The notes under the pieces were generated by a model. The model worked only from the letters and a program-made list of their open reading frames with translations. It did no database searches and had not been told where the DNA came from. Positions 13,813-54,514 of a stretch of DNA of 64,000 nt are shown here, piece by piece. This DNA comes from an uncultured Muribaculaceae bacterium (GTDB lineage: Bacteria > Bacillota_I > Bacilli_A > RF39 > UBA660), in NCBI GenBank assembly GCA_964616485.1, contig CAZTRB010000005.1, positions 11,592-75,591 on the forward strand, written 5' to 3'. Position 1 is the stretch's first letter; each line of letters starts with the position of its first letter. The position numbers and the translations under genes are program-made.

Positions 13813-13847
13813 TAGCAAGAAAAAAGATATCTTTTTCAAGATATCTT
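13813..13847 (-). terminator. rho-independent terminator of the giant prepilin-like gene (overlaps its stop codon)
   Basis: Two copies of the palindrome aagatatctt separated by tttc (13824-13847), preceded on plus by an A-run 13816-13823. Confidence 0.6.
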
Positions 13848-18897: not shown

Positions 18898-18931
18898 AAT
18901 AAAGCTCCTTGTATTATCTTTTATATATAAC

Positions 18932-18960
18932 ATTTTAATATCTTTATACATAATAGTCAA
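18932..18960 (-). promoter_or_regulatory. sigma-A-type promoter of the prepilin-like gene (TTGACT-17-TAAAAT)
   Basis: Reverse complement of agtcaa at 18955-18960 gives the -35. Reverse complement of atttta at 18932-18937 gives the -10. The spacer is 17 nt. Confidence 0.5.
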
Positions 18961-21121: not shown

Positions 21122-21130
21122 GAGGACTTT

Positions 21131-22546
21131 ATGAAAAAAATCTTTAAACCATTTACAATGGTTTTCCTTTTTACAGTGATGTTTTTGTTTAATAATAACG
21201 TCTTGGCAGCTAACTTAAATGTCTCGATAACCTCGAGTACTAGTAGAGCGGTAGTTGGTAACAATATTACTTATACGGTTAGAGTGTCTTCTAATGCTAA
21301 ATTTGGTAATATTCATTATAGATTAGAATATGACACTTCTAAGTTAACTCATGTAAGTGGAACACTAAATAATTTTGATTTAAATGTTATCGATAAATAT
21401 TCTGCTACTTACACTTTTACTTTTAGAGCAAAAGCAAGTGGTAATGCTAGAGTAACGTTCGTAATCAACGAAGCCTTAGAATTAAATAACAATTCTTTTA
21501 ATTATAATACTAGAACCAATAAAGATATAACGATCATAACTCAACAACAATTAGAAGCTAGCTATAGTAAAAACAACTACCTATCATCTTTAAAAATAGA
21601 TAATTTTGAAATGACACCGGCTTTTAATAAAGATACTTTAGAATACTCGATAGAATTAGAAAACGATGTTAAATCAATAAATATTAGCGGTACTAAAGCA
21701 GATTCAACAGCATCAGTCGAAGGTTTGGGTGCACATGAATTAATAGAAGGACCAAATAAAATAAATATAAAAGTTACTGCCCAAAACGGTGCCTCTAGAA
21801 CATATACGATAAATGCAACGGTAAAAGAATTAAATCCCATTATCGTAACTGTCGACGGCAAAGAATATAATGTCGTTAGAAAAAAAGACCTAATAAAAAA
21901 ACCTAATAGCAAATACGAAGAGACGATTATACAAATAAATGAAGAAGATGTCCCAGCTTTCATAAACGAGACGACTAAAGTAACATTAATCGGGCTTAGA
22001 GATGAAGAGGACAACATTTCTTTATTTAGTGTTAAAAATGATACGTATATTCCTTACCAAGAATTCGCTTTTAGTAGTATAATATTTACGGAAGAAAATT
22101 TAGACGATCTTCCTAAAGGTTATACTAAAACTAAATTAAAACTCGAAGAAGTAGAAATAGACGCTTATCAAGATAACTCTAACTTAAATTTCTACCTAAT
22201 AAAAGGAGTGAACATTGAAACGGGAATAACTTCCCTATATCAATATGATAGTAAAGAAAACACTCTTCAAATATATAATGATTCATTAGCTAAACAAAAT
22301 AAGGAATTAACTAATAAGAATAATATTTATCTTTATACTATAATTGGTCTAATAGCACTCATAGCTATATCTTCCGGAACGATATTAGTAAAGACTTTAA
22401 AAAATGAAAAACCTAAAATAAAAAAAGAAGAGAAGACCGACAAAAAAGTCAAAGAAAAAGTAGAGGAACCGAAAGAACCTATCATAGAAGAAGAGAGTCT
22501 AACAAAACAAATAAAGAAAATGAAAAAAAATAAAAAACAATCTTAA
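21131..22546 (+). CDS. membrane-anchored cohesin-like scaffold protein (signal peptide, cohesin-like domain, cadherin-like domain, C-terminal TM and Lys-rich tail)
   Basis: AGGAGG RBS. Cohesin-like pattern NVSITSSTSRAVVGNNITYTVRVSSN...IHYRLEYDTSKLTHVSG...RVTFVINEA. Cadherin-like region LSSLKIDNFEMTPAF...INIKVTAQNGASRTYTINATV. TM helix IIGLIALIAISSGTILV followed by a lysine-rich tail. Confidence 0.6.
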   Translation: MKKIFKPFTMVFLFTVMFLFNNNVLAANLNVSITSSTSRAVVGNNITYTVRVSSNAKFGNIHYRLEYDTSKLTHVSGTLNNFDLNVIDKYSATYTFTFRAKASGNARVTFVINEALELNNNSFNYNTRTNKDITIITQQQLEASYSKNNYLSSLKIDNFEMTPAFNKDTLEYSIELENDVKSINISGTKADSTASVEGLGAHELIEGPNKINIKVTAQNGASRTYTINATVKELNPIIVTVDGKEYNVVRKKDLIKKPNSKYEETIIQINEEDVPAFINETTKVTLIGLRDEEDNISLFSVKNDTYIPYQEFAFSSIIFTEENLDDLPKGYTKTKLKLEEVEIDAYQDNSNLNFYLIKGVNIETGITSLYQYDSKENTLQIYNDSLAKQNKELTNKNNIYLYTIIGLIALIAISSGTILVKTLKNEKPKIKKEEKTDKKVKEKVEEPKEPIIEEESLTKQIKKMKKNKKQS

Positions 22547-22561
22547 TATACTGGAGGAATT

Positions 22562-24667
22562 ATGAAAAAGAAAAAGATCAAATACCAAAATATATTCACA
22601 ATACTTTGTATCTTAAGCAGCTTATATCTAATCCAATCTATCTACTTATTTTCACAAATAGAAACAGTTATTAGATACTCTGTAATTGGTATTTTAGTTC
22701 TTTTCGACTTCTTTATATTAATTAAGATGTTTTTCTTAAAGACTAAAAAAACTATTATATATATTATAGTCTTAGTCTTTTTTAGTGGAATATATATATT
22801 CTTAGGATACAATTTAAATAGAATATACTCTTATTTTACTAACTTAAATAAGACGATTACTTATTCGACTAGTTTAGTTACCTTAAAAAGTACTAAAGAT
22901 GTCGATCTAATAACACTTAAGAATGCTAATATAGGTCTTATCGATGATCCGACTTCTGAAGATGGACACATCTTAGCACAAGAGATAATAAAGAAAGAGA
23001 GTTTATCTAAAAACAATAATATTATCTATAGGCATTCATATACTGAACTTATATTAGATTTATATGATAAAGACTTAGACTATATTTTTCTTCCTAGTTC
23101 TTATGTCGATATCTTTAGTACGATCGAAGGTCTTGAAGATATAGAAGATAAAATTAAGACTATTCTAACGACAGAGATGGAAAAGACTAAAGAAGAGGCA
23201 CAACTATTAGGAGATCCTAAGAATATAGATGAACCATTCACGATGTTATTAATAGGTATTGATTCAACGGCTGATGGTATTCAAAATGCCGACTCATTTA
23301 ATGGAGATTCTCTTATGGTACTTACTTTTAATCCTAAGACGATGACTGCTACGATGTTAAGTATACCTAGAGATACGTATGTTCCAATAGCATGCTTTCC
23401 AAATAAAATAGAAAATAAGATAACTCATTCTGCTTCTCGTGGTACAAGTTGTGTTATAAATACTATTCAAAACTTATTGGATATAAAAATAGACTATTAT
23501 ATGAAGATTAACTTTACTGGTCTAGTCGAACTAGTCGATGCCGTCGGTGGAGTCGAAGTCGATGTTCCTTATAGTTTTTGTGAACAAAATAGTAAGAGAA
23601 AATTCGGTAATAGTACTATCTATGTAAAAGAAGGTTTAAGGACACTTAATGGTGAAGAGGCCTTAGCATTATCTAGAAATAGAAAGAATAATTATGAATA
23701 TTGTTCTAAAGAATGGACTAAGGGAAATAGAAGTGACTTTGTAAGAGCAGAGAACCAACAAAAAGTAGTTCAAGGAATATTAAATAAAGTAAAAGGTTAT
23801 ACTTCTATTAACAAAATAGAAGAGTTATTAAAAATAGTCTCTAAAAACTTAGATACTAATATGAGTGAGAAGACGATTTTCTCATTCTATAATATTGCAA
23901 AGGATGTCATGATATCATCGTCTAATTCTGATATACTATCTATTCAAAGATTAGAGATAGTCGGATGGGGACAAACGATATACGATGAGACATCTAAGTT
24001 ACAGTTGTGGAATTATGTTCCAAATAAGAGAAGTACCGAAGATGTAAAAGAAGCTATTAAAATAAATTTAGGACTGAAAAAACATGAGTTAATCAAGACT
24101 TTCACTTATTCTTGGAAAGAAGAATATACTCAAAAGATTCCAGGTAAAGGGCCTTATAGTATATATACTACTTATGACTTGCTAAAAGACTTTACTAACA
24201 TGAATATAACGGATGTCGAGCTATGGGCTGAAAAAAACGACATTACTTTAGTCATAGAAGAAGTAGAAAAGGTCGGTTACAAAAATGGTACAGTCGTTAA
24301 TCAAGAGTATCCAGTTAATAAGAGATTAGATTTAATACCCGATAGAACATTAAAAATAGAAGTAGTCAAGAATAAAGATACTAAAATAGACTGTTTAAAA
24401 GACGAGGAAAACATTATTTGTCTAATACCTGACTTTATCGGTAAAACTAAGAAAGACGTAGCTCTTTGGGGAAATAAGTTCTCTAATCTAGTAGATGTTA
24501 AATATGTAGAAGTGGAGTCTGAAGAAGAAGAGAATACGATAATAGATCAAACGATTAAAGGTATTACGATAAAAGAATTACTTGAGAATAAAGAGAGTAT
24601 CACTTTTACTATCGTTAAGAAAAAAGAAATAATACCACCTATCGAAGAAGAAATGGAAGAAGAATAA
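22562..24667 (+). CDS. LCP (LytR-CpsA-Psr) family glycopolymer ligase with an N-terminal membrane region and an extended C-terminal domain
   Basis: TMLLIGIDSTADG ... DSLMVLTFNP ... SIPRDTYVPIA ... DYYMKINFTGLVELVDAVGGVEVDV. C-terminal ~250 aa of unknown fold with an acidic tail. Confidence 0.8.
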   Translation: MKKKKIKYQNIFTILCILSSLYLIQSIYLFSQIETVIRYSVIGILVLFDFFILIKMFFLKTKKTIIYIIVLVFFSGIYIFLGYNLNRIYSYFTNLNKTITYSTSLVTLKSTKDVDLITLKNANIGLIDDPTSEDGHILAQEIIKKESLSKNNNIIYRHSYTELILDLYDKDLDYIFLPSSYVDIFSTIEGLEDIEDKIKTILTTEMEKTKEEAQLLGDPKNIDEPFTMLLIGIDSTADGIQNADSFNGDSLMVLTFNPKTMTATMLSIPRDTYVPIACFPNKIENKITHSASRGTSCVINTIQNLLDIKIDYYMKINFTGLVELVDAVGGVEVDVPYSFCEQNSKRKFGNSTIYVKEGLRTLNGEEALALSRNRKNNYEYCSKEWTKGNRSDFVRAENQQKVVQGILNKVKGYTSINKIEELLKIVSKNLDTNMSEKTIFSFYNIAKDVMISSSNSDILSIQRLEIVGWGQTIYDETSKLQLWNYVPNKRSTEDVKEAIKINLGLKKHELIKTFTYSWKEEYTQKIPGKGPYSIYTTYDLLKDFTNMNITDVELWAEKNDITLVIEEVEKVGYKNGTVVNQEYPVNKRLDLIPDRTLKIEVVKNKDTKIDCLKDEENIICLIPDFIGKTKKDVALWGNKFSNLVDVKYVEVESEEEENTIIDQTIKGITIKELLENKESITFTIVKKKEIIPPIEEEMEEE

Positions 24668-30435: not shown

Positions 30436-30790
30436 AAATAATATTAATAAGCCATGTTCTGTTCCTATTTCTAGGCGACAAACATTTATCTACCGAATTA
30501 CTTCAGTCCTTAACTCCGTTTGATTCCTTCGTTAAAGTTCCTCTACCGAAATTTGAGTTTCTCGCTTGCGGGGTTTATCACGTTCCACTTCCATCGTTTC
30601 CAACTTGTTCGTCACTATGACACTTTATAGCTAATCTAGTCATATCCGAAGACTTAGACTATTTCGCCGCCGTTAGTTACCTACCTAGAGTTATTTTTTC
30701 CTCTAGCACAAACACTACAGACATCTCAGCCTGTGCGAGCATGGACTTTCCTCTATATTATTAAAAATACAGCGTTTGTCTTAATATTAT
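30436..30790 (-). ncRNA. rnpB: RNase P RNA, Bacillus-type (type B)
   Basis: Minus strand reads ...GAGGAAAGTCCATGCTCGCACAGGCTGAGATG..., which is near-identical to the B. subtilis rnpB 5' core, and ...ACAAGTTGGAAACGATGGAAGTGGAACG...ACATGGCTTATT at the 3' side. P1 forms between ATAATATTAAG (5') and CTTATTAATATTAT (3'). Lies next to gpsB, as in Bacillus. End coordinates are +/-10 nt. Confidence 0.85.
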
Positions 30791-37080: not shown

Positions 37081-37560
37081 TTAATAATTATTATCTAAAT
37101 AAGTTATAATCTCTTTAATATCTTTTTCAAATAAAGTACCGAAAGCTAAGTCGATATACCATTCTTTCGTTTCTTTAATATATTTATCGATAAAATTTTT
37201 ATTAGCAAGGACAACCTCTTTAAGATTACAAAGACGATCCGCTAATTTAACGGTCTTGGCAGCTTCATTTAAAGAGATTCTCTCTATATAGTTAGACATA
37301 TCATAATTATCTTCTTTAGTAAGTAAAACGACTATATTAGCTATCTCAACACTCGTTAAAGAAGATAACTCTTCATAAGTAGTATCCGTATCTTCTAAAA
37401 GATCATGACATAGAGCAATGACCTGATATTTTTCATCAAAGCCTTTTTCTTTTAAAAGAAGAGATACAGAAAAAGGATGTAAATAATAAGGTGTCCCTTG
37501 AATTCTCTTTTGATCGGCATGTTTTAGTTTAACGAATTCTCTTATATTATCTATATTCAT
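37081..37560 (-). CDS. small HD-domain hydrolase (Rel/SpoT-type HD fold; possible small alarmone hydrolase)
   Basis: H...HD...D pattern: LHPFSV ... CHDLLEDTD ... KLADR. Confidence 0.6.
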   Translation of the reverse strand: MNIDNIREFVKLKHADQKRIQGTPYYLHPFSVSLLLKEKGFDEKYQVIALCHDLLEDTDTTYEELSSLTSVEIANIVVLLTKEDNYDMSNYIERISLNEAAKTVKLADRLCNLKEVVLANKNFIDKYIKETKEWYIDLAFGTLFEKDIKEIITYLDNNY

Positions 37561-37610
37561 ATAGCCCTCTATTAATATTATATCATGTATTATAATGACA
37601 GCAAAACACT

Positions 37611-37642
37611 AAAACAAAAAAAAAGAAAAGTAAACCTTTTCT
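37611..37642 (-). terminator. terminator downstream of hup
   Basis: Hairpin agaaaag-taaac-cttttct, preceded on plus by a long A-run (U-tract on the minus transcript). Confidence 0.45.
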
Positions 37643-37648
37643 TTCTTA

Positions 37649-37921
37649 CTAGTTAACTGCTTCTTTTAATGCTGTACCAGCTTTAAAAGTAACGGCTTTT
37701 CTCGCAGCAATTTTAACTTTTGCTCCTGTTTGTGGGTTACGTCCCTCTCTTGCTTTTCTATGTGAAACTCCGAAAGTTCCAAATCCAGCAACTGGTACCT
37801 TGTTCCCCTTTGCTAATGCATTAGAAATAGTATTAAATACTGCGTCTAAAGCACGTGTTGCATCAGCTTTTGTAAGTCCCGTTTCTTTTGCAACTGCTTC
37901 TACTAAATCTGCCTTTTTCAT
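37649..37921 (-). CDS. hup: DNA-binding protein HU
   Basis: MKKADLVEAVAKETGLTKADA ... RNPQTGAKVKIAARKAVTFKAGTALKEAV. Near-identical pattern to Bacillus Hbs. Confidence 0.95.
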   Translation of the reverse strand: MKKADLVEAVAKETGLTKADATRALDAVFNTISNALAKGNKVPVAGFGTFGVSHRKAREGRNPQTGAKVKIAARKAVTFKAGTALKEAVN

Positions 37922-38018
37922 TATATTACCTCCTCCTTTTAAGCATAATATGCTTACATATACAAAATATCACAAATTATTTGTAAAATCAACATATTAT
38001 ACGTATTTTTCAATATAT

Positions 38019-39059
38019 TTACATAATTAACGCTTTTTCATTCAAAACATAGCGATAAGCCTTATTTTCATGGATAATAATAAACGTACTTTCTCTTTTC
38101 CTCTTACTCTCAAAAAACAAGATAGGTATCCTTAATTCATCTTCGATATCGATTAGATCTTTAACGTTAGTTATATCCATTACATTAAATTTACTTAAGT
38201 CTGGTTTTTTAGCCACTTCAGCGATAACATTGGCATAAGTAGTTAAGATCCTATCTCTTTCTTTAGTGTAAGGGTCAGCGTTTTTAAGGTGTAGTACTCT
38301 CTTTAAATAATAGAAGAATAAGACAAATGACACCATTACTAAGAATATTCCAATAGTAAGACCGTACTGATTAACGATGTTATCTTTACTAAAAACATTT
38401 TTATTCTCATTGAAAGATCCCGTTTTATCGACACTTACTACCGTATCCAAAAGAGGAATTTTAGCTGTCATAGTGTGAAGATCAGCGACTTTCTTAGCCG
38501 TTTCTTTAGTCGTAATAAGATTGTTTATTTCAAAGACAACTTTTATATAAGCCTCTGTTAAGATAGAACTTTCTTTTCTAAACTCCAAAGCTTCTTCTTG
38601 ATATTCTTTATAATCGATAGTCGTTTTATAATCAAAGAACACGACTCCTGTCTCTTGTTTTATGACTTTATTTTTAGGAAACAAAACGTCTTCTCTCTTC
38701 CATAATTCTTCCGTTTGAAGGCCGTCTTTATAAGTGTTAACTAAAAACAAAGATATAGAATATTCCGCTTCAGAATCAATTAGATTAATAGACGTAAGGT
38801 CATAAGTAAATTTTAAATCGATATAGTCGATATATTTAGCTAGAATCTTATTCTTATTAATATATTCATCTTTATATAAAAAGTTATCTTTTAGTCTAAA
38901 ATTATACTCGATATCACCGAAAGATTTATAATCGACAACGATATTATTTTTGTTATTTTCTATACTCGTACTATCATAAGTTATAATTGATCCGGCAAAA
39001 AAGAGTAATACCCCTAGTAATAATAATACTATACTTTCCTTTTCTTTAGTTCTTTTCAT
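38019..39059 (-). CDS. bitopic membrane protein of unknown function (last gene of the WXG/TasA/SipW operon)
   Basis: N-terminal TM helix, ~200-aa extracytoplasmic region, second TM (LTIGIFLVMVSFVLFFYYL) and a ~100-aa cytoplasmic tail. Confidence 0.5.
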   Translation of the reverse strand: MKRTKEKESIVLLLLGVLLFFAGSIITYDSTSIENNKNNIVVDYKSFGDIEYNFRLKDNFLYKDEYINKNKILAKYIDYIDLKFTYDLTSINLIDSEAEYSISLFLVNTYKDGLQTEELWKREDVLFPKNKVIKQETGVVFFDYKTTIDYKEYQEEALEFRKESSILTEAYIKVVFEINNLITTKETAKKVADLHTMTAKIPLLDTVVSVDKTGSFNENKNVFSKDNIVNQYGLTIGIFLVMVSFVLFFYYLKRVLHLKNADPYTKERDRILTTYANVIAEVAKKPDLSKFNVMDITNVKDLIDIEDELRIPILFFESKRKRESTFIIIHENKAYRYVLNEKALIM

Positions 39060-39073
39060 CTTGACCTCCTATT

Positions 39074-40213
39074 TTAATTATTTAAAAGTTCATTAAACCA
39101 TACTGTAGGATATCCAAAATATGGTAGAGAAACATTATATTTTGCAACTATGTCTTCCGGATAAACTCTCCAGTTATCTTCTGACGAATTATTATCTCCT
39201 TTTGTTATGAGATAATCTATATCACCATTAGATAATCTACTTATATAATTAATCCTGTGAACGACATAGGTATTATCGTATCTATAATAGATTATATCAT
39301 ATTGAACTAAATTATTAATATCTTTATCACTTAATTTTTCTAAAATTAATAAATCTCCTCTTTTAAAAGTATCTTTCATACTATCGGATAAAACGGCCAT
39401 CGGATAATAATTAAATACTCTTAAGATAAACATTATTAATACCGATACGACGATGGCAAGAATAGTTATACCACCATTCTTTTCATCGATAAACCTTCTC
39501 GTTCTAGAATCGCTATTATTAACCAAGGTACTTATATTAAAATAGACGAACATCGGTAGCAACAAACCGAATAGAGTCGTTACAATCCAGGGATGGCTAG
39601 GTAAAATAGGTAAGATGATTAGTAATAGTCTCGTCCATACCAAGTAGATTATAGTCGTCTTATACTTCATATTTCTTTGTAAATAAGTCATGACATAACT
39701 AGTTATAATAAGCGGAAGGACTAATGAAGAAAACATCTTAAAAAGATAACTAAACTCACTTACAGAGAAAATATATAAGACATTCATACTACTGAAAGCC
39801 AATAAAAATGAAATGATACTATTATTAATTAAAGTATCTTTGGAGTTGGTAATTAACTTATATCTTATATACTCGTTTACCGTTATCGTTCCAATAGTAG
39901 TAAAAACAACTTTTAAAAGAGTAATTAAAGACCTATTATATATCGATTTCTCATAACCAAAGAAAAGACCAGACATAAAATATATTAAAGAATATATTAT
40001 TAAGATTATTATTATGTTTTGAGTCTTATCGTAGTTATCTTTGCTCTTAGTATATTTAGTATCGAATAAAAAGAAGAAAGTAACTGCTATTATCGATAAA
40101 ATTATCATATTCATTATTCCTGCATACACAGAGAAGATAGAAGTAACTAGATAATTTTGAAATATTATATATAAAAACAGTATTATATATGTTAAATATA
40201 TTTTCTTCATCAT
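39074..40213 (-). CDS. archaeal/ER-type signal peptidase I (SipW-like) fused to an N-terminal polytopic (~8 TM) membrane domain
   Basis: C-terminal domain AVLSDSMKDTFKRGDLLI ... HRI ... TKGDNNSSED resembles the SipW SGSMEP/His/GDNN catalytic blocks. AGGAGG RBS immediately before ATGATG at 40213/40210; the ORF-track extension is translation of the RBS. Confidence 0.65.
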   Translation of the reverse strand: MMKKIYLTYIILFLYIIFQNYLVTSIFSVYAGIMNMIILSIIAVTFFFLFDTKYTKSKDNYDKTQNIIIILIIYSLIYFMSGLFFGYEKSIYNRSLITLLKVVFTTIGTITVNEYIRYKLITNSKDTLINNSIISFLLAFSSMNVLYIFSVSEFSYLFKMFSSLVLPLIITSYVMTYLQRNMKYKTTIIYLVWTRLLLIILPILPSHPWIVTTLFGLLLPMFVYFNISTLVNNSDSRTRRFIDEKNGGITILAIVVSVLIMFILRVFNYYPMAVLSDSMKDTFKRGDLLILEKLSDKDINNLVQYDIIYYRYDNTYVVHRINYISRLSNGDIDYLITKGDNNSSEDNWRVYPEDIVAKYNVSLPYFGYPTVWFNELLNN

Positions 40214-40310
40214 GGTCCTCCTATTATAAATATTATATACTACAACAAAGAAAAAAAACAACTTTTACAGTCTTTTGTACTGTTTAATTGTTTTTTTGTA
40301 AACTTATCTT

Positions 40311-40826
40311 TTAACGAACTACATAGTCAAGTGTCAGCCTCAAGTCTTTTGTTAAGTCTTCAGCGGTAACTTCTTCAGTCATATCTGGATTATAATAAGC
40401 TATAACTTCAAATAATTTGCTTTGTCCGACTTGTAATACTTCACCGGCTTCTATTCCGTTTATTGTATAAATAATAAATCCTTCTCCATAGTCTTTAGGA
40501 TTTAATTCAATGGCATTTAATTTAGCATCTAGGTTTCCTTGATTTCTAACATTAACAACATATTTAACGGTATCACCAGGATCGACAAAAGTAGCGCTAA
40601 ATATAGCGGTCTTAGAATCTAAAACGGTCGATTCTAAACTTTTTCCACTTCCCTCAGTCTCTGTGCTATTAATTGCCGTTATCGCGACGTCAAAGTCAGG
40701 GTTAACGATCGTAGCACTTCCTTTTATTTCTAACTGCGTAGATAAAAGAGCATACCCTACTGACACAAAAACAAGTGCAACTAGTAAAGCTCCAATCATC
40801 GTATTTTTCTTATCTTTATTGCTCAT
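40311..40826 (-). CDS. TasA/camelysin (peptidase M73)-like secreted protein, putative SipW substrate
   Basis: Lys-rich N-terminus plus hydrophobic signal KKNTMIGALLVALVFVSVGYA. Core FVDPGDTVKYVVNVRNQGNLDAKLNAIEL resembles the CalY/TasA LKPGDSVKKEF..QNSGSL block. AGGAGGA RBS. Confidence 0.5.
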   Translation of the reverse strand: MSNKDKKNTMIGALLVALVFVSVGYALLSTQLEIKGSATIVNPDFDVAITAINSTETEGSGKSLESTVLDSKTAIFSATFVDPGDTVKYVVNVRNQGNLDAKLNAIELNPKDYGEGFIIYTINGIEAGEVLQVGQSKLFEVIAYYNPDMTEEVTAEDLTKDLRLTLDYVVR

Positions 40827-40880
40827 ATAATCCTCCTATAATAAATTTTAATATATATGGCTTTTATTGTCAATTATTCG

Positions 40881-41948
40881 CTATGAATCTACTACTTTTA
40901 ATTTAAGACGAATCATACTCTTAACCTGATTAAATTGTTCAGTAGAATGAAACATTGTCTGTGAAATTGTCGTTGAACCTACTTTATCACCAGTTACGAC
41001 CCATTCGTAATAGTTTGTTCTTAAGAATGTACTAGGGTCTTTTCTATTTACATAAGGTTCAGAAACAGCTGTCGCATAGTTTTGCCAACCTTTAGCACCA
41101 TCAGCCGTCGTCCTTTGAAGCTGTTTTATTTTACCAGCACTAACTGGAAGTTTTACGATTATTCTAATAGTCTCTCCCTTTTTTACGACTATTTCATCAT
41201 CTCTTTTATATTCTTTTCCGTTATACCAAAGAGTAGGAGTTTGGGCTACTTTACCTATTTTAGGTGAGATATAATAATCATCATTATCAATATCTCCGAC
41301 AAAAGCCCTAGCTTCTTCATCGAGACTAAGATTAGTACTAGTTATTTGACTATTGACTATCTTTTTAACTTCTTCTTCCTTTATTTTAATCTCTTCTATT
41401 TTAGTAGTAGTAACTCCTTTAATAGAGGCTATCTCTTTATCAATACTCTCTTTTAAAATCGTCAAAGTTCTAAAGTCACTATCGACATTCGTCGTTAATT
41501 CATCTTTAGTAGATTGATAAGTCTTATAAGCACTAGTTAAAGTAGTCGTCTCTTCATTATTACTATCTAACTCGTATTTAGGTGAAGGTTCTCTTAGTTT
41601 ATCAAGAGTCTCTTTATTTTTCTCATACTGTAAATCTAAATCTTTAAAAGTCTCTAACATCGATACTAGATTGTTTACTATGCGTTCTGAAACTGGAATC
41701 AATGCTTGTTCGACATTTTTATTAAGATTTTTAATAGCTTCTATTATCTGTGGTAAAAACTCGGACTTTAAATACTCTTGTCCCGCTTCTTTCCAATTCT
41801 CACCGCTCATCGAATCTAATAGATTTGTGTCTATATCAACTATTTTAGTAACATCTTCAAGCACCCTTTTCGCTTTGTTAACAAGTTCTTTTTCACTTTT
41901 GAGTTTTTCATAATAATTATCGTAAGGATTAATATAAAAAATTGCCAT
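40881..41948 (-). CDS. two-domain protein: N-terminal helical LXG/WXG-like domain plus C-terminal beta-rich domain of unknown function
   Basis: N-terminal LDSMSGENWKEAGQEYLKSEFLPQIIEAI resembles the LXG-domain consensus (..G.aadaikaYfe..h.Pllqal). Central coiled-coil region. C-terminal ~150 aa beta-rich. Confidence 0.4.
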   Translation of the reverse strand: MAIFYINPYDNYYEKLKSEKELVNKAKRVLEDVTKIVDIDTNLLDSMSGENWKEAGQEYLKSEFLPQIIEAIKNLNKNVEQALIPVSERIVNNLVSMLETFKDLDLQYEKNKETLDKLREPSPKYELDSNNEETTTLTSAYKTYQSTKDELTTNVDSDFRTLTILKESIDKEIASIKGVTTTKIEEIKIKEEEVKKIVNSQITSTNLSLDEEARAFVGDIDNDDYYISPKIGKVAQTPTLWYNGKEYKRDDEIVVKKGETIRIIVKLPVSAGKIKQLQRTTADGAKGWQNYATAVSEPYVNRKDPSTFLRTNYYEWVVTGDKVGSTTISQTMFHSTEQFNQVKSMIRLKLKVVDS

Positions 41949-41964
41949 TTAATCACATCCTTTA

Positions 41965-42288
41965 TTAATTTATATCTAATTTGCTAGTATTGTCTTCTAA
42001 AAATTGAATTCGATTTCTTTCATCGGTATTATAAGCTTCGATTGCTTCTTCTAAAAACAAAATCAAACTCTCTAATTCTTTTATTTCTAAAGGAAAGTTT
42101 TCACTTATCTTTAAATACTTGTCATACATAATTTGTTGAGTCTTACCAACCCAAACATCAGTTTCTCCATTTATTTGCTTTAGATTATGATCTAATTCAT
42201 CGAATTTACTTTCAAGACTAAACTTTTTTTGTTTTAAAAGAGCTACTACTTTTTCAAGTTCTTTAGTATTAATATCTAAATTCATCAT
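41965..42288 (-). CDS. WXG100-superfamily small helical protein
   Basis: 107 aa, predicted helical hairpin with central W-V-G (ETDVWVGKTQQIMYDKY). ATGA overlap with the upstream gene. Confidence 0.55.
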   Translation of the reverse strand: MMNLDINTKELEKVVALLKQKKFSLESKFDELDHNLKQINGETDVWVGKTQQIMYDKYLKISENFPLEIKELESLILFLEEAIEAYNTDERNRIQFLEDNTSKLDIN

Positions 42289-42587
42289 AGCTTATCACCG
42301 TCTTTTCTCATTTCAGCAACAAACTCATTATTTCTCTTAGTGTATACCCCCATACAATAGTCTATCTTTTCATAGATTCTTTTCAACCTATGATTCTCAT
42401 ATTTACTTTTTGAAATAAATCCACGATACTTATCACAAAAAGCATCACTATCGACGCCTTTCCAATTTTGTTCGATTATCGGAAGTAAGTCTTCTATTTC
42501 TTTAATTACTTTTTCTATCTCTTCATACTTAGTCTCAATAGATAACGAAACACTATCCATTTCTTGAAATTTAACTTTTAGTTTCAT
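42285..42587 (-). CDS. WXG100-superfamily small helical protein
   Basis: 100 aa. IEQNWKGVDSDAFCDKYRGF matches the WXG100 hallmark (W-x-G followed by a ..F...F helix). AAGGAG RBS. Confidence 0.6.
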   Translation of the reverse strand: MKLKVKFQEMDSVSLSIETKYEEIEKVIKEIEDLLPIIEQNWKGVDSDAFCDKYRGFISKSKYENHRLKRIYEKIDYCMGVYTKRNNEFVAEMRKDGDKL

Positions 42588-42588
42588 A

Positions 42589-43482
42589 TTAAACTCCTTG
42601 CTTCAATACATCGATATATATTTCGTTAGTCAATAGGGTTTCAACGGTAATATCTAACTTTTTAGCGATGTTATTGATATAGTTTTTATATATACTCATC
42701 TCTTTATTAGTTAAGCCATCCGGTATTTCAGGAGCATAATAAAGAGAGTGAAAAGTTTTAAACAAAAGAGTCTTATTTTTATCCTCGATTAATAGTTCGG
42801 AAAAAGTAATATTACTTGATTCTGCTACTTTTTCTAGATGTTCTTTAGTTATTAAAAAAGTCAGGCTTTGTTCAAAAATATTAAAATCTTTGTTTTTTGC
42901 TAACAATTCTAAAAGTTGTTTTTGAATGACAAAATTATCTTCTGTAGAAAAAACTAAATTTGGTGCGAATCTTTTTAAGTAGAAGATTAAGGCCTTAGTG
43001 TTTTGGCCTCCAAATAAAAGACGATTTAAATTAAATGGGTCTTTTTCGTTAACGTTTTGAACTAGCAAACTTTGTCCAAACGAATCGAAATCAGCAAGGT
43101 CCGTAATCTGGCTATTAGGAAGCATGCTTGGTCCACCTACAGTCTCTCCAATTACACCACTAAATCCACCACCTCCAGTATAGCCACTATAACCACTACC
43201 ATTATTAGTATCATCTTCGACAATCTTACCAAGATTCTCTTCACTAGTTATCATGTCTTCACTATGTCCTCTAAGTCTTCTAATTAATTGTGTTTTATTT
43301 GTAGCAAGACTATCTACGTCTTTTTTAATATCTTCGGCAACAGTCGATAGTTCTAATTCTTTAAATACAGCAAAATCAGTAGCCACCGAAGTAGCGACTG
43401 CTTCCAAAAGGGCCGAAGTCTCTGATAACTTACTAATTACTTCTTCTAATTCTGCAGAGTTATAAATTATTTCATTTGTCAT
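42589..43482 (-). CDS. hypothetical protein with an N-terminal WXG100-like helical hairpin, Gly-rich linker and ~170-aa C-terminal domain
   Basis: N-terminal 90 aa helical (SAELEEVISKLSETSALLEAVATSVATDFAVFKELE). Linker GSGYSGYTGGGGFSGVIGETVGG. Only 18 bp downstream of the der stop. Confidence 0.45.
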   Translation of the reverse strand: MTNEIIYNSAELEEVISKLSETSALLEAVATSVATDFAVFKELELSTVAEDIKKDVDSLATNKTQLIRRLRGHSEDMITSEENLGKIVEDDTNNGSGYSGYTGGGGFSGVIGETVGGPSMLPNSQITDLADFDSFGQSLLVQNVNEKDPFNLNRLLFGGQNTKALIFYLKRFAPNLVFSTEDNFVIQKQLLELLAKNKDFNIFEQSLTFLITKEHLEKVAESSNITFSELLIEDKNKTLLFKTFHSLYYAPEIPDGLTNKEMSIYKNYINNIAKKLDITVETLLTNEIYIDVLKQGV

Positions 43483-43500
43483 ATAATCACCTACTTATTA

Positions 43501-44805
43501 TTAATCACTTCTATTTTTAAACTGTAATACTATCGGAGTACCACTTAATTCAAAATTTTCTCTTAATTTATTTTCTAAATATCTCTCGTATGAAAAGTGA
43601 ACGAGATTTTTATTATTAACATGAAATGTATATTTAGGAGGTTTCTTTCCCGTTTGATTGACAAAATATATCTTAAGTCTCTTACCTTTATAAGATGGTG
43701 GTGGATTTAATGTGTATGCTTCAATCATAACTTCAGATAAAAGACTACTCGCTATTTCTCTACTTATATTTTCTTTTACTTTAAGTATCTCAGGCATAAT
43801 AGTATGAATTCTCTTTTTAGTTAAAGCCGATGTAAATACGATCGGTACATAACTTAAAAATTGAAACTCTGATCTTACTTTCTTAGTATATTCTCTTATA
43901 TCCATATCTTTAACAGTATCCCATTTGTTAACGACGATTATTAATCCTTTACCACTTTCCAAGACATATCCGGCAATATGTTTATCATGCTCGATAATTC
44001 CTTCTTCCGCATTAATTACTAAGAGACAAATATCGCTACGATCAATCGCCTTCATACTTCTAAGAGCACTATACTTCTCAATATTTTCAAATATTCGTCC
44101 CTTTTTTCTTAATCCAGCTGTGTCGATAGCTACAAACTCTTCATCGTTATATCTGAACACCGTATCAACGGCATCTCTAGTCGTTCCAGGAACATCACTA
44201 ACAATTAAACGGTCTTCATTTAAAAGAGCATTTATAATACTACTCTTACCGACATTGGGCCTTCCAACGACGGAAAACTTTAAACGATTATCTTCTATTG
44301 AATAATCTCTCTTCGGTAAATGCGATACTATTTCATCGAAAAGTTCGATGAAACCGATATTATGCTCTCCACTTACTTGAACATAACTATCGAATCCAAG
44401 CTCATAAAAATCATAGATATTATCGATACTCTTTTTACTATCTACCTTGTTAATAACGACTATTACTTCCTTGTTACTTTTTCTTAACATATCTCTTACT
44501 AAATAGTCGTTACTAGTCAAGCCCTCTTTACCATCGACGATAAATAACACGACATCGGCTTGTTCGATAGCAATTTCCGCTTGCATTTTTATTACGTCAT
44601 TAAATTTTATCTCTTCACTATCGATACCACCGGTATCAATAACATTGAACTTATAATCTCCGTAAGTAGTATCACTATATATCCTGTCTCTAGTAACTCC
44701 AGGAGTATCTTCGATAATAGATATTCTTGAACCGACCATACGATTGAAGATTGTGCTTTTTCCAACATTAGGCGTTCCGACTAATGCGATAATTGGAAGG
44801 TTCAT
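43501..44805 (-). CDS. der: ribosome-biogenesis GTPase Der (EngA), tandem G domains plus KH-like domain
   Basis: Two Walker A motifs (GTPNVGKST, GRPNVGKSS) and a C-terminal KH-like region. Confidence 0.95.
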   Translation of the reverse strand: MNLPIIALVGTPNVGKSTIFNRMVGSRISIIEDTPGVTRDRIYSDTTYGDYKFNVIDTGGIDSEEIKFNDVIKMQAEIAIEQADVVLFIVDGKEGLTSNDYLVRDMLRKSNKEVIVVINKVDSKKSIDNIYDFYELGFDSYVQVSGEHNIGFIELFDEIVSHLPKRDYSIEDNRLKFSVVGRPNVGKSSIINALLNEDRLIVSDVPGTTRDAVDTVFRYNDEEFVAIDTAGLRKKGRIFENIEKYSALRSMKAIDRSDICLLVINAEEGIIEHDKHIAGYVLESGKGLIIVVNKWDTVKDMDIREYTKKVRSEFQFLSYVPIVFTSALTKKRIHTIMPEILKVKENISREIASSLLSEVMIEAYTLNPPPSYKGKRLKIYFVNQTGKKPPKYTFHVNNKNLVHFSYERYLENKLRENFELSGTPIVLQFKNRSD

Positions 44806-47609: not shown

Positions 47610-47665
47610 AAATTTACCTCTTTCAATAAGACTATTTTAACAAAGATTACCTTATTTGTGAACAC

Positions 47666-52462: not shown

Positions 52463-54514
52463 TTACTTATATTCCTCTTTATCTTTACGCATTTCTAAAG
52501 TAGCTTCATTTATAGCATCATCAATCGTCTTTATCTCATCGATAATCATACTAAAACCAATAGCAGCACCAAATCCATAAGGAAGAGTCTTTAACTCTTT
52601 AGAAATCTTTTTAGCATAAGTAGTAACTTGTTGTTCACTGTATCCGACCAAATAAATTAAGAATTCATTTCCATCAGTTCTTATAATCTCAGTCTTTTCA
52701 AGCTGAGTATTAACTAAAATACTAGCAGCACCAATAATAAGCTTATCACCTTGATCATAACCATAATTGTCATTTACATATTTAACATTATTTAAGTCGA
52801 TTACGATTATACCTTGTGGATACTTATCACTATCATTCCATAGTTTTTTACTAAAGTTTAAGTAATTTCTATTCTTAAGAGAAGTTAACATATCAGTATA
52901 TTTACGACGCTCTTCTTTCTTAACATATTTTTTCTCTTTAAAACTTCTTAATATTAGAATAACGACTAAGATAGCTATGATAGGAATGATTAAGATAACA
53001 AAAAGTATTACATATAATTCTTCAAAAGAACTCTTTTCTAAAAGTGTTAGATTAAGACTGCTTAGACCTTCGTTACGATAATTATAATAAGAGTTAGTAC
53101 TTATTATATAGTCGAATATTTTATGTAAGACTTTATTGCTATCATCATTTTTAACCATAAAATTATAGTCTTTAGTAATCGTCGATTCAAATAAAATCTC
53201 ATAATCAGAAAACTTATTATTTTTGTAATAGTTATATACTTCTTTATCGACGACGACTAAGTTACCATTAGAACTCTTAAGTAGACTGTCTAGAGTTTGT
53301 GCTGGTACGAGAGCAGCTTTGCTACTATCTTTAAAATAATTATAAATAGCATTGTTTTCTAATAAGTATACTTTTCTACCTTTAGTCGACTCAAAAGTAT
53401 TAACGACAAACTTATCTTTAGCTTTTCCTAAGACGACATATTTCTCGATAAACGGAGAAATAGTAGGTACGTAATTACTATGTTCAAAATCATAGTAATT
53501 AAAGTAAATATCAACTTCCCCCTTATTAATAGCTTCTTTTAAAGCTTCAAGGGTATCGTATTTATTAAAAGTTATTACCTTATCACTCATTAATCTTTGC
53601 ATCCTACCAATGTATTCAGCAGCTATTCCCGACAATTCCTTCTTGTCTTTTACTTCGTAAGGATAGTTTTCTACATAACCATAAATATAGTTTTTAGTTA
53701 AAAATTCTGTCTTTTCCTTATCGTTTATATTAGCGGCATTAATATAATAATCTAAAAGCATCTTATTATATACCGAGACGTAATTGTTCTTCTTCCAAGT
53801 CTTAAAATATTTAGTAACGATCTCGTTCATTCTCGAATCATTCTCTTTATCACTTAAAGAGAGAACGATACTTCTACTAAAATCGGTAAATATGTATTTA
53901 ATATGAAAATCTTCTTTTAAAATAGTCTCATTCAGATACATCGTATTAGGAATAATAATCATATCGATAGCGTCTTTTTCATAATCTTCAAAAAGTTTAT
54001 CGGCTTCTTCATAAGTCTTATATTTGACTTGACCATAACTCTTTAAATAATAAATTATCTCATCAGAATCGTTAGCTAAAATTCCAAAAGTCTTACTTCC
54101 CACCTCATTAATTGAGTCATATCTACCTTTTTCTTTACCAATCAAAGCATAGACTTCTTCTTGTAAGAATAAGTCTTTTTCACTTAATACTTCTTTATTA
54201 GTTAAAATTCTAAATCTATAGCCTTTAGAATCGATAACACTTTCTTTTAAAAAAGGAACAACATTAAATTCAAAACCAGTATCTTTACTAAAATCATCGA
54301 TAAATCTTCTAAAAACACCGCCGTTACCAAAAACAGGATAATCACTAAGAATACTAAAATCGACGACTGTCGCTTGATTCTCCTTAATCCATTTATTATC
54401 CGCTACCGTAAACGAATTTTGGTCTTCCTTATTAAAATAATAATATAACGATAAGAATGTCACTATCGCTATTATTAAAGGTATTATAAATAACCATTTC
54501 TTCTTAATTTTCAT
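52463..54514 (-). CDS. membrane sensor protein with a large extracytoplasmic domain and a degenerate cytoplasmic GGDEF domain
   Basis: TM helix near the N-terminus and a second TM (LYVILFVILIIPIIAILVVILIL). C-terminal GGDEF-like fold carries RTDGNEF in place of RYGG(D/E)EF. Confidence 0.6.
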   Translation of the reverse strand: MKIKKKWLFIIPLIIAIVTFLSLYYYFNKEDQNSFTVADNKWIKENQATVVDFSILSDYPVFGNGGVFRRFIDDFSKDTGFEFNVVPFLKESVIDSKGYRFRILTNKEVLSEKDLFLQEEVYALIGKEKGRYDSINEVGSKTFGILANDSDEIIYYLKSYGQVKYKTYEEADKLFEDYEKDAIDMIIIPNTMYLNETILKEDFHIKYIFTDFSRSIVLSLSDKENDSRMNEIVTKYFKTWKKNNYVSVYNKMLLDYYINAANINDKEKTEFLTKNYIYGYVENYPYEVKDKKELSGIAAEYIGRMQRLMSDKVITFNKYDTLEALKEAINKGEVDIYFNYYDFEHSNYVPTISPFIEKYVVLGKAKDKFVVNTFESTKGRKVYLLENNAIYNYFKDSSKAALVPAQTLDSLLKSSNGNLVVVDKEVYNYYKNNKFSDYEILFESTITKDYNFMVKNDDSNKVLHKIFDYIISTNSYYNYRNEGLSSLNLTLLEKSSFEELYVILFVILIIPIIAILVVILILRSFKEKKYVKKEERRKYTDMLTSLKNRNYLNFSKKLWNDSDKYPQGIIVIDLNNVKYVNDNYGYDQGDKLIIGAASILVNTQLEKTEIIRTDGNEFLIYLVGYSEQQVTTYAKKISKELKTLPYGFGAAIGFSMIIDEIKTIDDAINEATLEMRKDKEEYK

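What the first reader, a model, noticed from the sequence alone, without database searches (positions are those of the whole stretch)
38019..43482. Seven-gene operon combining WXG100-like and LXG-like proteins with a TasA-like protein and a SipW-type signal peptidase, inserted between der and hup
In transcription order the operon encodes a 297-aa protein with a WXG100-like helical N-terminus and Gly-rich linker, then two ~100-aa proteins with central W-x-G motifs in the classic position (IEQNWKGVDSDAF; ETDVWVGKTQQIMY). Next is a 355-aa protein whose N-terminus resembles an LXG domain (SMSGENWKEAGQEYLKSEFLPQII) followed by a beta-rich C-terminal domain. After that come a signal-peptide-bearing TasA/camelysin-like protein, an archaeal-type SipW peptidase, and a bitopic membrane protein. 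WXG100/LXG proteins are normally type VII secretion substrates or chaperones, while TasA-like proteins are processed by SipW and exported by Sec. Finding both modules in one tightly packed operon (gene junctions of 1-54 bp, 4-bp ATGA overlap), with no EssC-type ATPase in the window and only 18 bp after the der stop, is not an arrangement I recognise. It could be a fibre or adhesin assembly module, or a polymorphic-toxin-like cargo island.
Basis: partly seen in the sequence, partly recalled or inferred. Interest (0 to 1): 0.75.

Follow-up and report, generated by a model that had tools for sequence, protein, structure and literature searches.

The report
Two adjacent secretion cassettes, not one
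The seven genes are real, but they are best read as two separate, already-known kinds of gene cassette lying side by side: a type VII secretion effector set whose cargo looks like an adhesin, and a TasA/AbpX-like biofilm fibre set with its own signal peptidase.

Summary
All seven ORFs, the W-x-G motifs, the gene junctions and the der/hup flanks are as described. The single-operon reading does not hold.

- **Fibre cassette (g5-g7).** It encodes a 171-aa secreted acidic beta-sandwich protein, a roughly 9-10-TM archaeal-type signal peptidase I and a DUF5305 protein. This matches the AbpX-like/TasA-superfamily fibre module described in a 2026 preprint.
- **Its own promoter.** A near-consensus promoter (TTGACA-17-TAAAAT) sits in the 54-nt g4-g5 gap. 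It is conserved in seven other loci. Five of them (L010, L013-L015, L016) have no g1-g4 directly upstream.
- **It occurs alone.** The triad appears without g1-g4 in at least six loci.
- **Effector cassette (g1-g4).** In 22 metagenome loci, wherever the contig reaches far enough upstream, the upstream cassette genes precede g4 in the same order. None of those loci carries g5-g7. Some hold tandem copies. In one locus the cassettes sit directly before a bona fide EssC.
- **Its parts.** g2 and g3 are a diverged WXG100 pair. The g4 N-domain heads proteins with many different C-termini, and PPE proteins are its best structural match. The g4 C-domain is an Ig-like domain that also ends Sec-exported surface proteins.

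No T7SS machinery was found in about 72 kb around the locus. Pfam LXG does not match g4. Verdict: a juxtaposition of two known kinds, with a divergent and uncharacterised effector family.

The parts
42589..43482 (-). g1. A 297-aa cytoplasmic protein with an N-terminal helical hairpin (about residues 1-95), a Gly/Ser-rich linker and a conserved helical C-domain of about 190 aa. It is the first gene of the T7-type effector cassette and a presumed targeting or chaperone factor.
   Evidence: ORF. No TM segment. Pfam DUF5344 (the YwqI family) only at E 0.07. The 14-sequence profile has the ESAT-6-like HP0062 as its top PDB hit at E 0.12. hhalign to g3 gives 67% over 35 residues. Whenever present, a homologue of about 300 aa is the first gene of the cassette in the metagenome loci.
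42285..42587 (-). g2. A 100-aa diverged WXG100-family protein with WKG at residues 42-44.
   Evidence: Pfam WXG100 at 24.0 bits (E 4.9e-5), below the GA of 27.3. TIGR03930 at E 7e-6. The profile hits EsxA, ESAT-6 and EsxB over full length at E 0.04-0.1. It is a paralogue of g3 (hhalign 95.6%, E 1e-8). The L016 relatives that match the g2 profile (E about 1e-6) include two WXG100 proteins above Pfam GA, at 28.4 and 49.0 bits.
41965..42288 (-). g3. A 107-aa diverged WXG100-family protein with WVG at residues 46-48 and YxxxE at residues 86-90. It overlaps g2 by 4 nt.
   Evidence: Pfam YwqH-like at E 1e-3 and WXG100 at E 0.02. NCBIfam ESAT6_2 at E 1.3e-4. The profile's top PDB hit is HP0062 at E 1.5e-3, followed by EsxA and EsxB. 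YxxxD/E is conserved in 3 of 3 orthologues. The L016 relative scores 49 bits on WXG100, above GA.
41409..41948 (-). g4 N-domain (residues 1-180). Three long helices with an invariant W52 in the loop after helix 1. This is an LXG/PPE-like trafficking domain.
40884..41255 (-). g4 C-domain (residues 232-355). An Ig-like beta-sandwich that serves as the cargo and looks like an extracellular binding or adhesin domain.
40845..40873 (-). Near-consensus sigma-A-type promoter (TTGACA-17-TAAAAT) in the g4-g5 gap, followed by a GGAGG ribosome-binding site.
   Evidence: Best match in 37500-44000, at 11 of 12. The hexamers, spacing and RBS are conserved upstream of g5 in L002, L010, L012-L016. In L010 and L013-L016 no g1-g4 lies directly upstream. 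This is a consensus match plus conservation, with no transcript data.
40311..40826 (-). g5. A 171-aa precursor of a secreted acidic beta-sandwich subunit. It is an AbpX-like member of the TasA superfamily and the presumed donor-strand fibre subunit. The signal peptide covers residues 1-26, with predicted cleavage after the conserved G-Y-A.
   Evidence: One TM-like segment at residues 10-28. AF2 gives a helix at 5-29, a low-confidence stretch at 30-46 and then an 8-strand sandwich. The 55-sequence profile has AbpX (9sj2_C) as its top PDB hit at E 0.03, with 9rhp_A at E 0.45. Seven of 55 members hit Peptidase_M73/TasA and 37 of 55 hit DUF7507. The mature protein has pI 4.2 and 16% Asp+Glu. It is always followed by the g6/g7 types in intact loci.
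39074..40210 (-). g6. A 378-aa dedicated signal peptidase I. About 9 hydrophobic segments (residues 1-266) precede an archaeal/ER-type catalytic domain with Ser275 (SDSM), His318 (VHRI) and GDNN at residue 338.
   Evidence: TIGR02228 at 68.7 bits, above the cut-off of 51.85. Pfam Peptidase_S26 at 32.1 bits, above 22.9. The Bacillus SipW equivalog scores 57.6 bits, below its cut-off of 190. Hydropathy and motifs. The start codon is supported. The full-length architecture is conserved in distant triads. It matches the '10-TM SPase I' reported next to abpX.
38019..39059 (-). g7. A 346-aa DUF5305 protein with two TM segments (residues 9-27 and 234-258). It is the presumed accessory subunit of the signal peptidase, equivalent to TafG.
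   Evidence: PF17231 at 48.5 bits, above the cut-off of 29. Hydropathy. The literature proposes DUF5305/TafG as an SPase-associated factor, sometimes fused to the SPase.

Best explanation
The region holds two independent cassettes that are neighbours in this lineage.

**Cassette A (g1-g4): a type VIIb secretion effector set**
- The paralogous WXG100-like hairpins g2 and g3 (g3 carries a YxxxE export motif) are inferred to pack with the N-terminal hairpin of g1 along the three long helices of the g4 N-domain.
- That would give an elongated pre-secretion bundle like LXG-Lap or PE-PPE complexes.
- An EssC-type ATPase encoded elsewhere would recognise the bundle and export g4.
- The g4 cargo is not a toxin. 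It is an Ig-like extracellular domain that also sits at the distal end of Sec-exported, membrane-anchored surface proteins. g4 is therefore most likely a released or surface-associated binding protein.

**Cassette B (g5-g7): an AbpX-like, TasA-superfamily fibre system**
- It is transcribed from its own strong promoter.
- Pre-g5 enters the Sec pathway.
- The polytopic archaeal-type signal peptidase g6, assisted by the DUF5305 protein g7, removes the signal peptide after the conserved G-Y-A.
- The acidic 145-aa subunits then polymerise outside the cell by donating their N-terminal strand to the next subunit. The result would be thin matrix or bundling fibres.

**Shown here**
- Homology.
- Domain architecture.
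- Predicted folds.
- Separate recurrence of the two cassettes.
- Promoter conservation.
- Linkage of a related cassette A to EssC.

**Inferred**
- Complex formation.
- Export routes.
- The cleavage site.
- Polymerisation.
For: **Separability**
- g5-g6-g7 occurs without g1-g4 at the same chromosomal site in L010, L013, L014 and L015, and at other sites in L019 and L021.
- In the 22 metagenome loci, the cassette genes upstream of g4 appear in the window's order wherever the contig extends far enough. None carries g5, g6 or g7. The long loci lie in at least five different genomic contexts. Copies are tandem in L042 and L044.
- In L016 the two modules are separated by spoVIF.
- A conserved TTGACA-17-TA(A/G)AAT promoter lies upstream of g5. 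In L002 and L003, g1 has its own extended -10 promoter after a terminator.

**Cassette A is T7SS-type**
- Two related cassettes in L042 are followed directly by a protein with FHA and FtsK_SpoIIIE domains. It scores 1041 bits on TIGR03928 EssC, against a cut-off of 778.
- g2, g3 and their relatives show WXG100 evidence. The YxxxD/E motif is present.
- The C-termini behind the g4 N-domain are polymorphic.
- The g4 C-domain is shared with Sec-exported surface proteins.

**Cassette B is an AbpX/TasA-type fibre system**
- The g5 profile's top PDB hits are AbpX, and some members hit TasA-family models.
- The peptidase passes TIGR02228 and carries about 9 extra hydrophobic segments. g7 is DUF5305.
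- The mature subunit is acidic.
- The same three-part module is described for AbpX and Tafi loci in archaea and Bacillota.
Against: - No T7SS core gene was found in the 64-kb window or in about 8 kb of extra flank. The rest of the genome could not be searched, so an export machine for g4 is assumed.
- Pfam LXG never matched g4 or 28 relatives.
- g2 and g3 of the window fall below the WXG100 gathering score.
- Foldseek of the g5 model against PDB gave no significant hit. The TasA fibre scored E 0.075. The AbpX sequence match is weak at E 0.03.
- g1-g4 and g5 have stayed adjacent in three diverged lineages (window, L002, L003; about 41-45% identity in g4). In L003, g5 follows g4 by 9 nt with no promoter. 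Some functional coupling is therefore not excluded.
- No terminator was detected between g4 and g5, so read-through is possible.
Confidence: 0.7

Rival explanations
1. One composite surface structure. The T7-type cassette delivers g4, whose Ig-like domain caps, decorates or anchors the g5 fibre. The seven genes would then act together.
For: - The two cassettes are adjacent on the same strand in the window, L002 and L003 despite about 41-45% divergence in g4.
- In L016 a WXG cluster also lies in the same neighbourhood.
- No terminator was found between g4 and g5.
- Bacterial abpX loci often encode anchor or tip proteins. This locus has no other candidate.
- The g4 cargo is an extracellular Ig-like domain rather than a toxin, and no immunity gene follows.
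Against: - Each cassette recurs many times without the other.
- g5 has its own conserved promoter.
- There is no profile similarity between the g4 C-domain and g5 (hhalign probability 0.5%).
- The g4 C-domain is modelled as a complete sandwich at pLDDT about 97, with no obvious open groove.
- Effectors with the same architecture as g4 occur widely as about ten 50%-identity clusters. Their genomic contexts were not examined.
Confidence: 0.12
2. g1-g4 is an orphan or decaying T7-type cassette in a reduced genome that has no T7SS. The proteins stay in the cytoplasm and have no function or a repurposed one. Only g5-g7 is functional.
For: - No T7SS gene was found in about 72 kb.
- Related genomes are small. 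One circular MAG is 1.31 Mb.
- The region shows frequent gene loss in relatives: g6/g7 are lost in L003, L016 and L022, and g1-g4 is absent in L010 and L013-L015.
- In the window, g1 has lost the separate promoter region seen in L002 and L003 and starts 18 nt after der.
Against: - All four ORFs are intact.
- The invariant W52, the WxG motifs and the YxxxE motif are kept.
- Gene overlaps and tight spacing are preserved.
- The GC content matches the flanks.
- A related low-GC metagenome contig, of unknown taxon, carries EssC beside such cassettes.
Confidence: 0.12
3. A sporulation-linked structure. The genes build a spore appendage or coat-associated fibre, because relatives carry them between spoVIF and spoIVA.
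For: - The position between spoVIF and spoIVA is conserved in L002, L003, L010 and L022.
- From background knowledge, TasA was first described as spore-associated.
Against: - The g5 promoter is a near-consensus vegetative sigma-A type in every locus.
- The window genome keeps all seven genes. It lacks the spoVIF, spoIVA and SASP genes that relatives carry at the syntenic sites.
- Distant triads lie at unrelated sites.
Confidence: 0.04

Closest known systems
AbpX-like loci of the TasA superfamily (Pyrodictium abyssi AbpX and homologues in Bacillota and Chloroflexota; bioRxiv 10.64898/2026.01.04.697558), and the haloarchaeal Tafi loci TafA/E-TafD-TafG (PMC11821415, PMC12337348)
   Same: - A small acidic secreted beta-sandwich subunit, and AbpX is the top PDB sequence hit for g5.
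- An adjacent dedicated signal peptidase I with many extra TM helices.
- A DUF5305 accessory protein with two TM segments.
   Different: - The sequence relation to AbpX is weak (E 0.03).
- The aromatic-2/acidic-4 donor-strand signature reported for AbpX is not evident in the predicted mature N-terminus LLSTQLEIKG.
- There is no minor pilin, tip or wall-anchor gene in the cassette.
- The signal is Sec-type rather than the Tat signal of Tafi.
- The host is a low-GC gut Bacilli lineage; one related MAG is a 1.31-Mb circular genome.
Bacillus subtilis tapA-sipW-tasA operon
   Same: - A matrix-fibre subunit with a dedicated ER/archaeal-type signal peptidase in the same locus.
- The N-x-G-(S/T)-(I/L) strand motif.
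- Some g5 family members hit the TasA Pfam model.
   Different: - g5 is 171 aa and does not itself hit PF12389.
- g6 fails the SipW equivalog model (57.6 bits against 190) and has a polytopic N-domain.
- There is no TapA. DUF5305 is present instead.
T7SSb LXG effector with Lap1/Lap2 targeting factors and a cognate WXG100 protein (Streptococcus intermedius TelA/TelC; PMC10801868), and Staphylococcus aureus EsaD with EsxB/C/D (PMC10653861)
   Same: - Three small helical partner genes lie directly upstream of a larger protein.
- That larger protein has a conserved helical N-domain and an exchangeable C-terminal cargo.
- A related cassette lies next to EssC.
- The N-domain has a PPE-like fold. This agrees with the reported resemblance between LXG complexes and PE-PPE.
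   Different: - There is no match to Pfam LXG, DUF3130 or DUF3958.
- The motif is SxWxE(L/A)G rather than LxG.
- The first partner (g1) is about 300 aa with an extra conserved C-domain.
- The cargo here is an Ig-like surface-type domain, not a toxin.
- No immunity gene follows.
Mycobacterial PE-PPE pairs (T7SSa substrates)
   Different: - Sequence identity is only 4-10%.
- They come from a different phylum and a different machine type (T7SSa).
- The partners are WXG100-like hairpins rather than PE proteins.

Membership tests
WXG100 (PF06013 / TIGR03930) | Score at or above the curated family threshold | tested here: not met
   - g2 scores 24.0 bits against GA 27.3, and 26.1 bits against 44.85 on TIGR03930.
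- g3 scores 15.5 bits.
- L016 relatives that match the g2/g3 profiles do pass Pfam GA, at 28.4 and 49.0 bits.
WXG100 (PF06013 / TIGR03930) | About 100 aa, a helical hairpin and a central W-x-G | tested here: met
   - g2 is 100 aa with WKG at residues 42-44. g3 is 107 aa with WVG at residues 46-48. Both are conserved in orthologues.
- Full-length profile alignments reach EsxA, ESAT-6, EsxB and HP0062.
WXG100 (PF06013 / TIGR03930) | Genomic linkage to an EssC/EccC ATPase | tested here: inconclusive
   - None was found in the window plus flanks.
- A related cassette in L042 is adjacent to EssC, which scores 1041 bits on TIGR03928.
- The rest of the genome could not be searched.
LXG polymorphic toxins (PF04740) | Match to the LXG domain model | tested here: not met
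   - g4 gives no hit at E <= 1.
- LXG is not among the 25 most frequent families (of 215 matched at E <= 0.1) for 28 N-domain relatives.
LXG polymorphic toxins (PF04740) | A conserved N-terminal helical domain with variable C-terminal domains across homologues | tested here: met
   - Many of the 207 hits match only residues 1-180 and carry other C-termini.
- These include Peptidase_C39_2 domains, unknown domains and one protein of 5353 aa.
LXG polymorphic toxins (PF04740) | Small helical targeting factors encoded directly upstream | tested here: met
   g1-g2-g3 precede g4 in the same order in every locus long enough to show it.
LXG polymorphic toxins (PF04740) | A C-terminal toxin domain with an immunity gene downstream | tested here: not met
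   - The C-domain is an Ig-like sandwich shared with surface proteins.
- The next gene is g5.
LXG polymorphic toxins (PF04740) | T7SSb-dependent export | not testable with these tools
   This needs a secretome comparison with and without essC.
TasA superfamily, AbpX-like branch | An N-terminal Sec-type signal peptide with an SPase I site | tested here: met
   - Basic N-terminus, a hydrophobic segment at residues 10-28, and a nearly invariant G-Y-A (G24, Y25, A26).
- Cleavage itself was not tested.
TasA superfamily, AbpX-like branch | Sequence or structure relation to a solved member | tested here: inconclusive
   - The profile's top PDB hits are AbpX at E 0.03 and 0.45. The alignment spans the region after the predicted cleavage site and the N-x-G-T-I strand.
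- Seven of 55 members hit PF12389, best at E 1.4e-3.
- Foldseek gives the TasA fibre only E 0.075.
TasA superfamily, AbpX-like branch | A dedicated SipW-type signal peptidase, polytopic in the AbpX branch, plus DUF5305 in the locus | tested here: met
   compared with the description.
TasA superfamily, AbpX-like branch | Polymerisation by donor-strand complementation | not testable with these tools
   - The only hint is that residues 30-46 are unstructured and of low confidence in the monomer model.
- No multimer prediction or electron microscopy was possible.
Archaeal/ER-type signal peptidase I (TIGR02228) | Score above the cut-off, with Ser/His catalytic motifs | tested here: met
   68.7 bits against 51.85. 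SDSM at residue 275, VHRI at 318 and GDNN at 338.
Bacillus SipW (NF046067 equivalog) | Score above the equivalog cut-off | tested here: not met
   57.6 bits against 190.
DUF5305 (PF17231; TafG-like) | Score above GA, with two TM segments flanking an extracellular domain | tested here: met
   48.5 bits against 29. TM segments at residues 9-27 and 234-258.

The most novel reading that the evidence does not exclude
A T7SS-exported Ig-like protein (g4) and a Sec/SipW-processed TasA-like fibre (g5) cooperate. Two unrelated export routes would then supply parts of one surface structure, for example an adhesin that caps or cross-links the fibre. This would explain why the cassettes have stayed adjacent in several diverged lineages and why the g4 cargo is not a toxin.
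Probability: 0.1. Interest if true: 0.7.

Novelty: new variant of a known kind. Interest (0 to 1): 0.35.

Why it matters
- **Annotation.** The locus should not be read as a new hybrid secretion system, and the seven genes should not be annotated as one operon.
- **A new effector family.** The work defines a conserved four-gene T7SSb-type cassette (g1-g2-g3-g4). Current Pfam and NCBIfam models do not recognise it at curated thresholds. It is recurrent in low-GC metagenome contigs and MAGs of uncultured, largely gut-derived Bacilli. Its cargo can be a non-toxic Ig-like surface domain. If g4 is really exported, T7SSb substrates would extend beyond toxins to adhesin-like proteins.
- **Reach of the fibre module.** The recently described AbpX-type module (subunit, polytopic signal peptidase, DUF5305) turns up in low-GC Bacilli lineages, one of them a 1.31-Mb MAG. 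Its compact three-gene form with a strong promoter would suit heterologous tests.

Tried and rejected
- **Pfam and NCBIfam on the window proteins**. No LXG, DUF3130, DUF3958 or TasA model hit g4 or g5.
- **PDB sequence searches with g4 profiles**. These returned only coiled-coil noise.
- **Foldseek of the g5 model against PDB**. No hit reached E < 0.01. The type IV pilin idea raised by the top hit (AAP filament) was dropped: there is no G/A-1 prepilin site and no prepilin peptidase, and a signal peptidase I lies next door.
- **afdb50** was not available.
- **g4 C-domain as a pilin-like paralogue of g5.** Rejected by hhalign at probability 0.5%.
- **Wide alignments for locus searches.** The genome scan with the 55-sequence g5 alignment and the metagenome scan with the 28-sequence N-domain alignment both failed for lack of a conserved stretch. 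They were repeated with narrower alignments.
- **Extending the window's contig to look for essC**. Only about 4 kb was gained on each side, and no T7SS gene appeared.
- **Cluster look-up for source names**. None was recorded.
- **Literature search for a SipW-WXG100 link**. Nothing relevant was found.
- **Sporulation-appendage idea.** Kept only as a weak rival, because the promoter is sigma-A-like and the window has lost the neighbouring spo genes.

Full report
**1. Observation**

The seven minus-strand ORFs exist at the stated coordinates. The same seven genes were called in a public contig that carries identical proteins.
- der ends 18 nt before g1, and hup follows g7.
- Junctions are 1 nt, a 4-nt ATGA overlap, 16 nt, 54 nt and 14 nt.
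- The W-x-G motifs are at residues 42-44 of g2 and 46-48 of g3.
- Base composition does not differ from the flanks (0.29-0.31 against 0.30-0.33).

Two corrections are needed.
- g6 most likely starts at the ATG at 40210, behind a GGAGG site. It is then 378 aa, as in the public call.
- g6 has about nine hydrophobic segments before its peptidase domain. g7 has two TM segments.

**2. The downstream three genes**

- **g6** passes the archaeal-type signal peptidase I model: TIGR02228 at 68.7 bits against a cut-off of 51.85. It keeps the SDSM, VHRI and GDNN motifs.
- **g7** is DUF5305, at 48.5 bits against 29.
- **g5** has a basic N-terminus, one hydrophobic segment and a nearly invariant G-Y-A. The AF2 model (pLDDT 80) then shows a low-confidence stretch followed by an eight-strand sandwich. 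The predicted mature protein has pI 4.2.

A 55-sequence profile of g5 relatives has AbpX as its best PDB sequence match (E 0.03 and 0.45). The alignment covers the region just after the predicted cleavage site and the N-x-G-T-I strand. Seven of the 55 members hit the TasA/camelysin Pfam model.

The literature describes exactly this trio:
- a TasA-superfamily donor-strand subunit;
- a dedicated signal peptidase I, with ten TM helices in the AbpX branch, which includes Bacillota;
- a DUF5305 accessory protein.

It is reported for AbpX loci and for haloarchaeal Tafi, where the parts are TafA/E, TafD and TafG.

The Foldseek search of the g5 model was not significant. Fold-level membership therefore rests on weak sequence evidence plus strong context.

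**3. The upstream four genes**

*g2 and g3*
- They are paralogues (hhalign 95.6%, E 1e-8).
- They score just below the WXG100 thresholds.
- Their profiles align end to end with EsxA, ESAT-6, EsxB and HP0062.
- Relatives in locus L016 that match the g2/g3 profiles pass the Pfam threshold at 28.4 and 49.0 bits.
- g3 orthologues keep a YxxxD/E motif.

*g4*
- It modelled with high confidence (pLDDT 93): three long helices, a linker and an Ig-like sandwich.
- LXG-Lap complexes have themselves been reported to resemble PE-PPE.

*Modularity of g4.* An exhaustive profile search found 207 relatives.
- The N-domain heads proteins with other C-termini. These include C39-like peptidases, unknown domains and one protein of 5353 aa. 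Some carry a canonical W-x-G-E-A.
- The C-domain closes Big_2/Bact_surface_Ig-like proteins that start with a signal peptide, anchor or lipobox. It is therefore an extracellular domain.

Pfam LXG never matched.

**4. Are the two halves one system?**

Context says no.
- **g5-g7 alone.** The trio stands alone between spoVIF and spoIVA in L010. In L013, L014 and L015 no g1-g4 lies within about 10 kb upstream. It also occurs at unrelated sites in L019 and L021.
- **Partial forms.** In L003/L004, g1-g5 remain but g6 and g7 are replaced. In L016 a WXG cluster lies upstream of spoVIF, with g5 and g7 downstream. In L022 only g5 is left.
- **g1-g4 alone.** A metagenome scan with the g4 N-domain returned 22 loci. 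Wherever the contig is long enough, g1-g2-g3-g4 occur in the same order. They lie in at least five genomic contexts, sometimes in tandem, and never with g5-g7.
- **Link to EssC.** In L042 two tandem cassettes are followed directly by a 1534-aa protein with FHA and FtsK_SpoIIIE domains. It scores 1041 bits on the EssC equivalog model, against a cut-off of 778.
- **Separate promoters.** The best promoter-like site of the region, TTGACA-17-TAAAAT, lies in the g4-g5 gap. It is conserved with its RBS in eight of nine loci. g1 has its own extended -10 promoter in L002 and L003.

**5. What remains open**

- No T7SS core gene lies in the window or in the few kilobases of flank I could add. The rest of the genome was out of reach.
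- The two cassettes have stayed neighbours in three diverged lineages, and no terminator separates them.
- A functional link, for example g4 decorating the g5 fibre, is therefore not excluded. It has no positive support: there is no g4C-g5 profile similarity.
- The position next to sporulation genes looks incidental. The g5 promoter is of the vegetative type. The window also lacks the spoVIF, spoIVA and SASP genes found at the syntenic sites in relatives.

**6. Verdict**

The sequence features are real. The family assignments are right in kind, though mostly below strict thresholds. The proposed new combined arrangement is best explained as two known kinds of cassette side by side.

The more interesting residue is the g1-g4 cassette itself. 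It is a divergent T7SSb-type effector family that current family models do not recognise at curated thresholds. Here it carries an adhesin-like rather than a toxic cargo.

Interest is moderate to low at 0.35. Novelty is rated as a new variant of a known kind.

Noticed in passing
window 13846-18960 (-): A 1704-aa ORF with a prepilin-type N-terminal methylation motif (residues 35-59) and a Big_7 domain. It looks like a giant pseudopilin-like surface protein.
   Followed up: no
window 37922-38018, 43483-43500 and 47610-47665, compared with L010 and L022: Relatives with the same gene order carry spoVIF after der, spoIVA before hup, and an SASP gene between thiI and ackA. The window has none of these at the syntenic sites, which suggests an asporogenous derivative lineage.
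   Followed up: partly
window 19106-24667 (+): Three adjacent surface-type genes: an SH3_3 plus dockerin protein, a cadherin-like-domain protein, and an LCP (LytR_cpsA_psr) protein with a PASTA domain.
   Followed up: no
L008 563-2396 and L012 (start of contig): A group II intron-type reverse transcriptase gene sits directly upstream of g5, and the contig ends there. Whether g1-g4 lie beyond it is unknown.
   Followed up: no
L003 11703-12542 / L004 3904-5163; L016 10507-10685; L022 10492-11294: The peptidase/DUF5305 pair has decayed repeatedly while g5 is kept. It is replaced by an AAA_14/DUF4143 gene in L003/L004. g6 is deleted in L016. Both genes are gone in L022.
   Followed up: partly
P0202 (5353 aa) and P0203 (601 aa): Proteins with the g4-type N-domain and a canonical YW(E/K)GEA motif. 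One is more than 5000 aa long. Its C-terminal content was not examined.
   Followed up: no
L032 6420-8297: A second, shorter effector set lies upstream of the g1-g4 cassette. It has g2-like and g3-like genes followed by a 415-aa protein. That protein has a helical N-terminus and an alpha/beta-hydrolase C-domain similar to PHB depolymerases and esterases.
   Followed up: partly
L021 4282-5133 and 6433-6948: A distant fibre cassette carries a second g5 paralogue and a 283-aa protein with weak g5 similarity, possibly a minor or tip subunit. It lies next to SpaA and sortase genes.
   Followed up: no
window 40251-40283 (-): A weak AT-rich hairpin (ACAGT-7-ACTGT) followed by a T-run lies between g5 and g6. 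It may be an attenuator after the subunit gene. The terminator scan did not call it.
   Followed up: no
window 52463-54514 (-): A 683-aa GGDEF-domain protein lies about 12 kb from the fibre cassette. Diguanylate cyclases are reported near abpX loci. No link was tested.
   Followed up: no
window 30444-30787 (-): Bacterial RNase P RNA of class B, at 296 bits. This fits a Bacillota origin.
   Followed up: no
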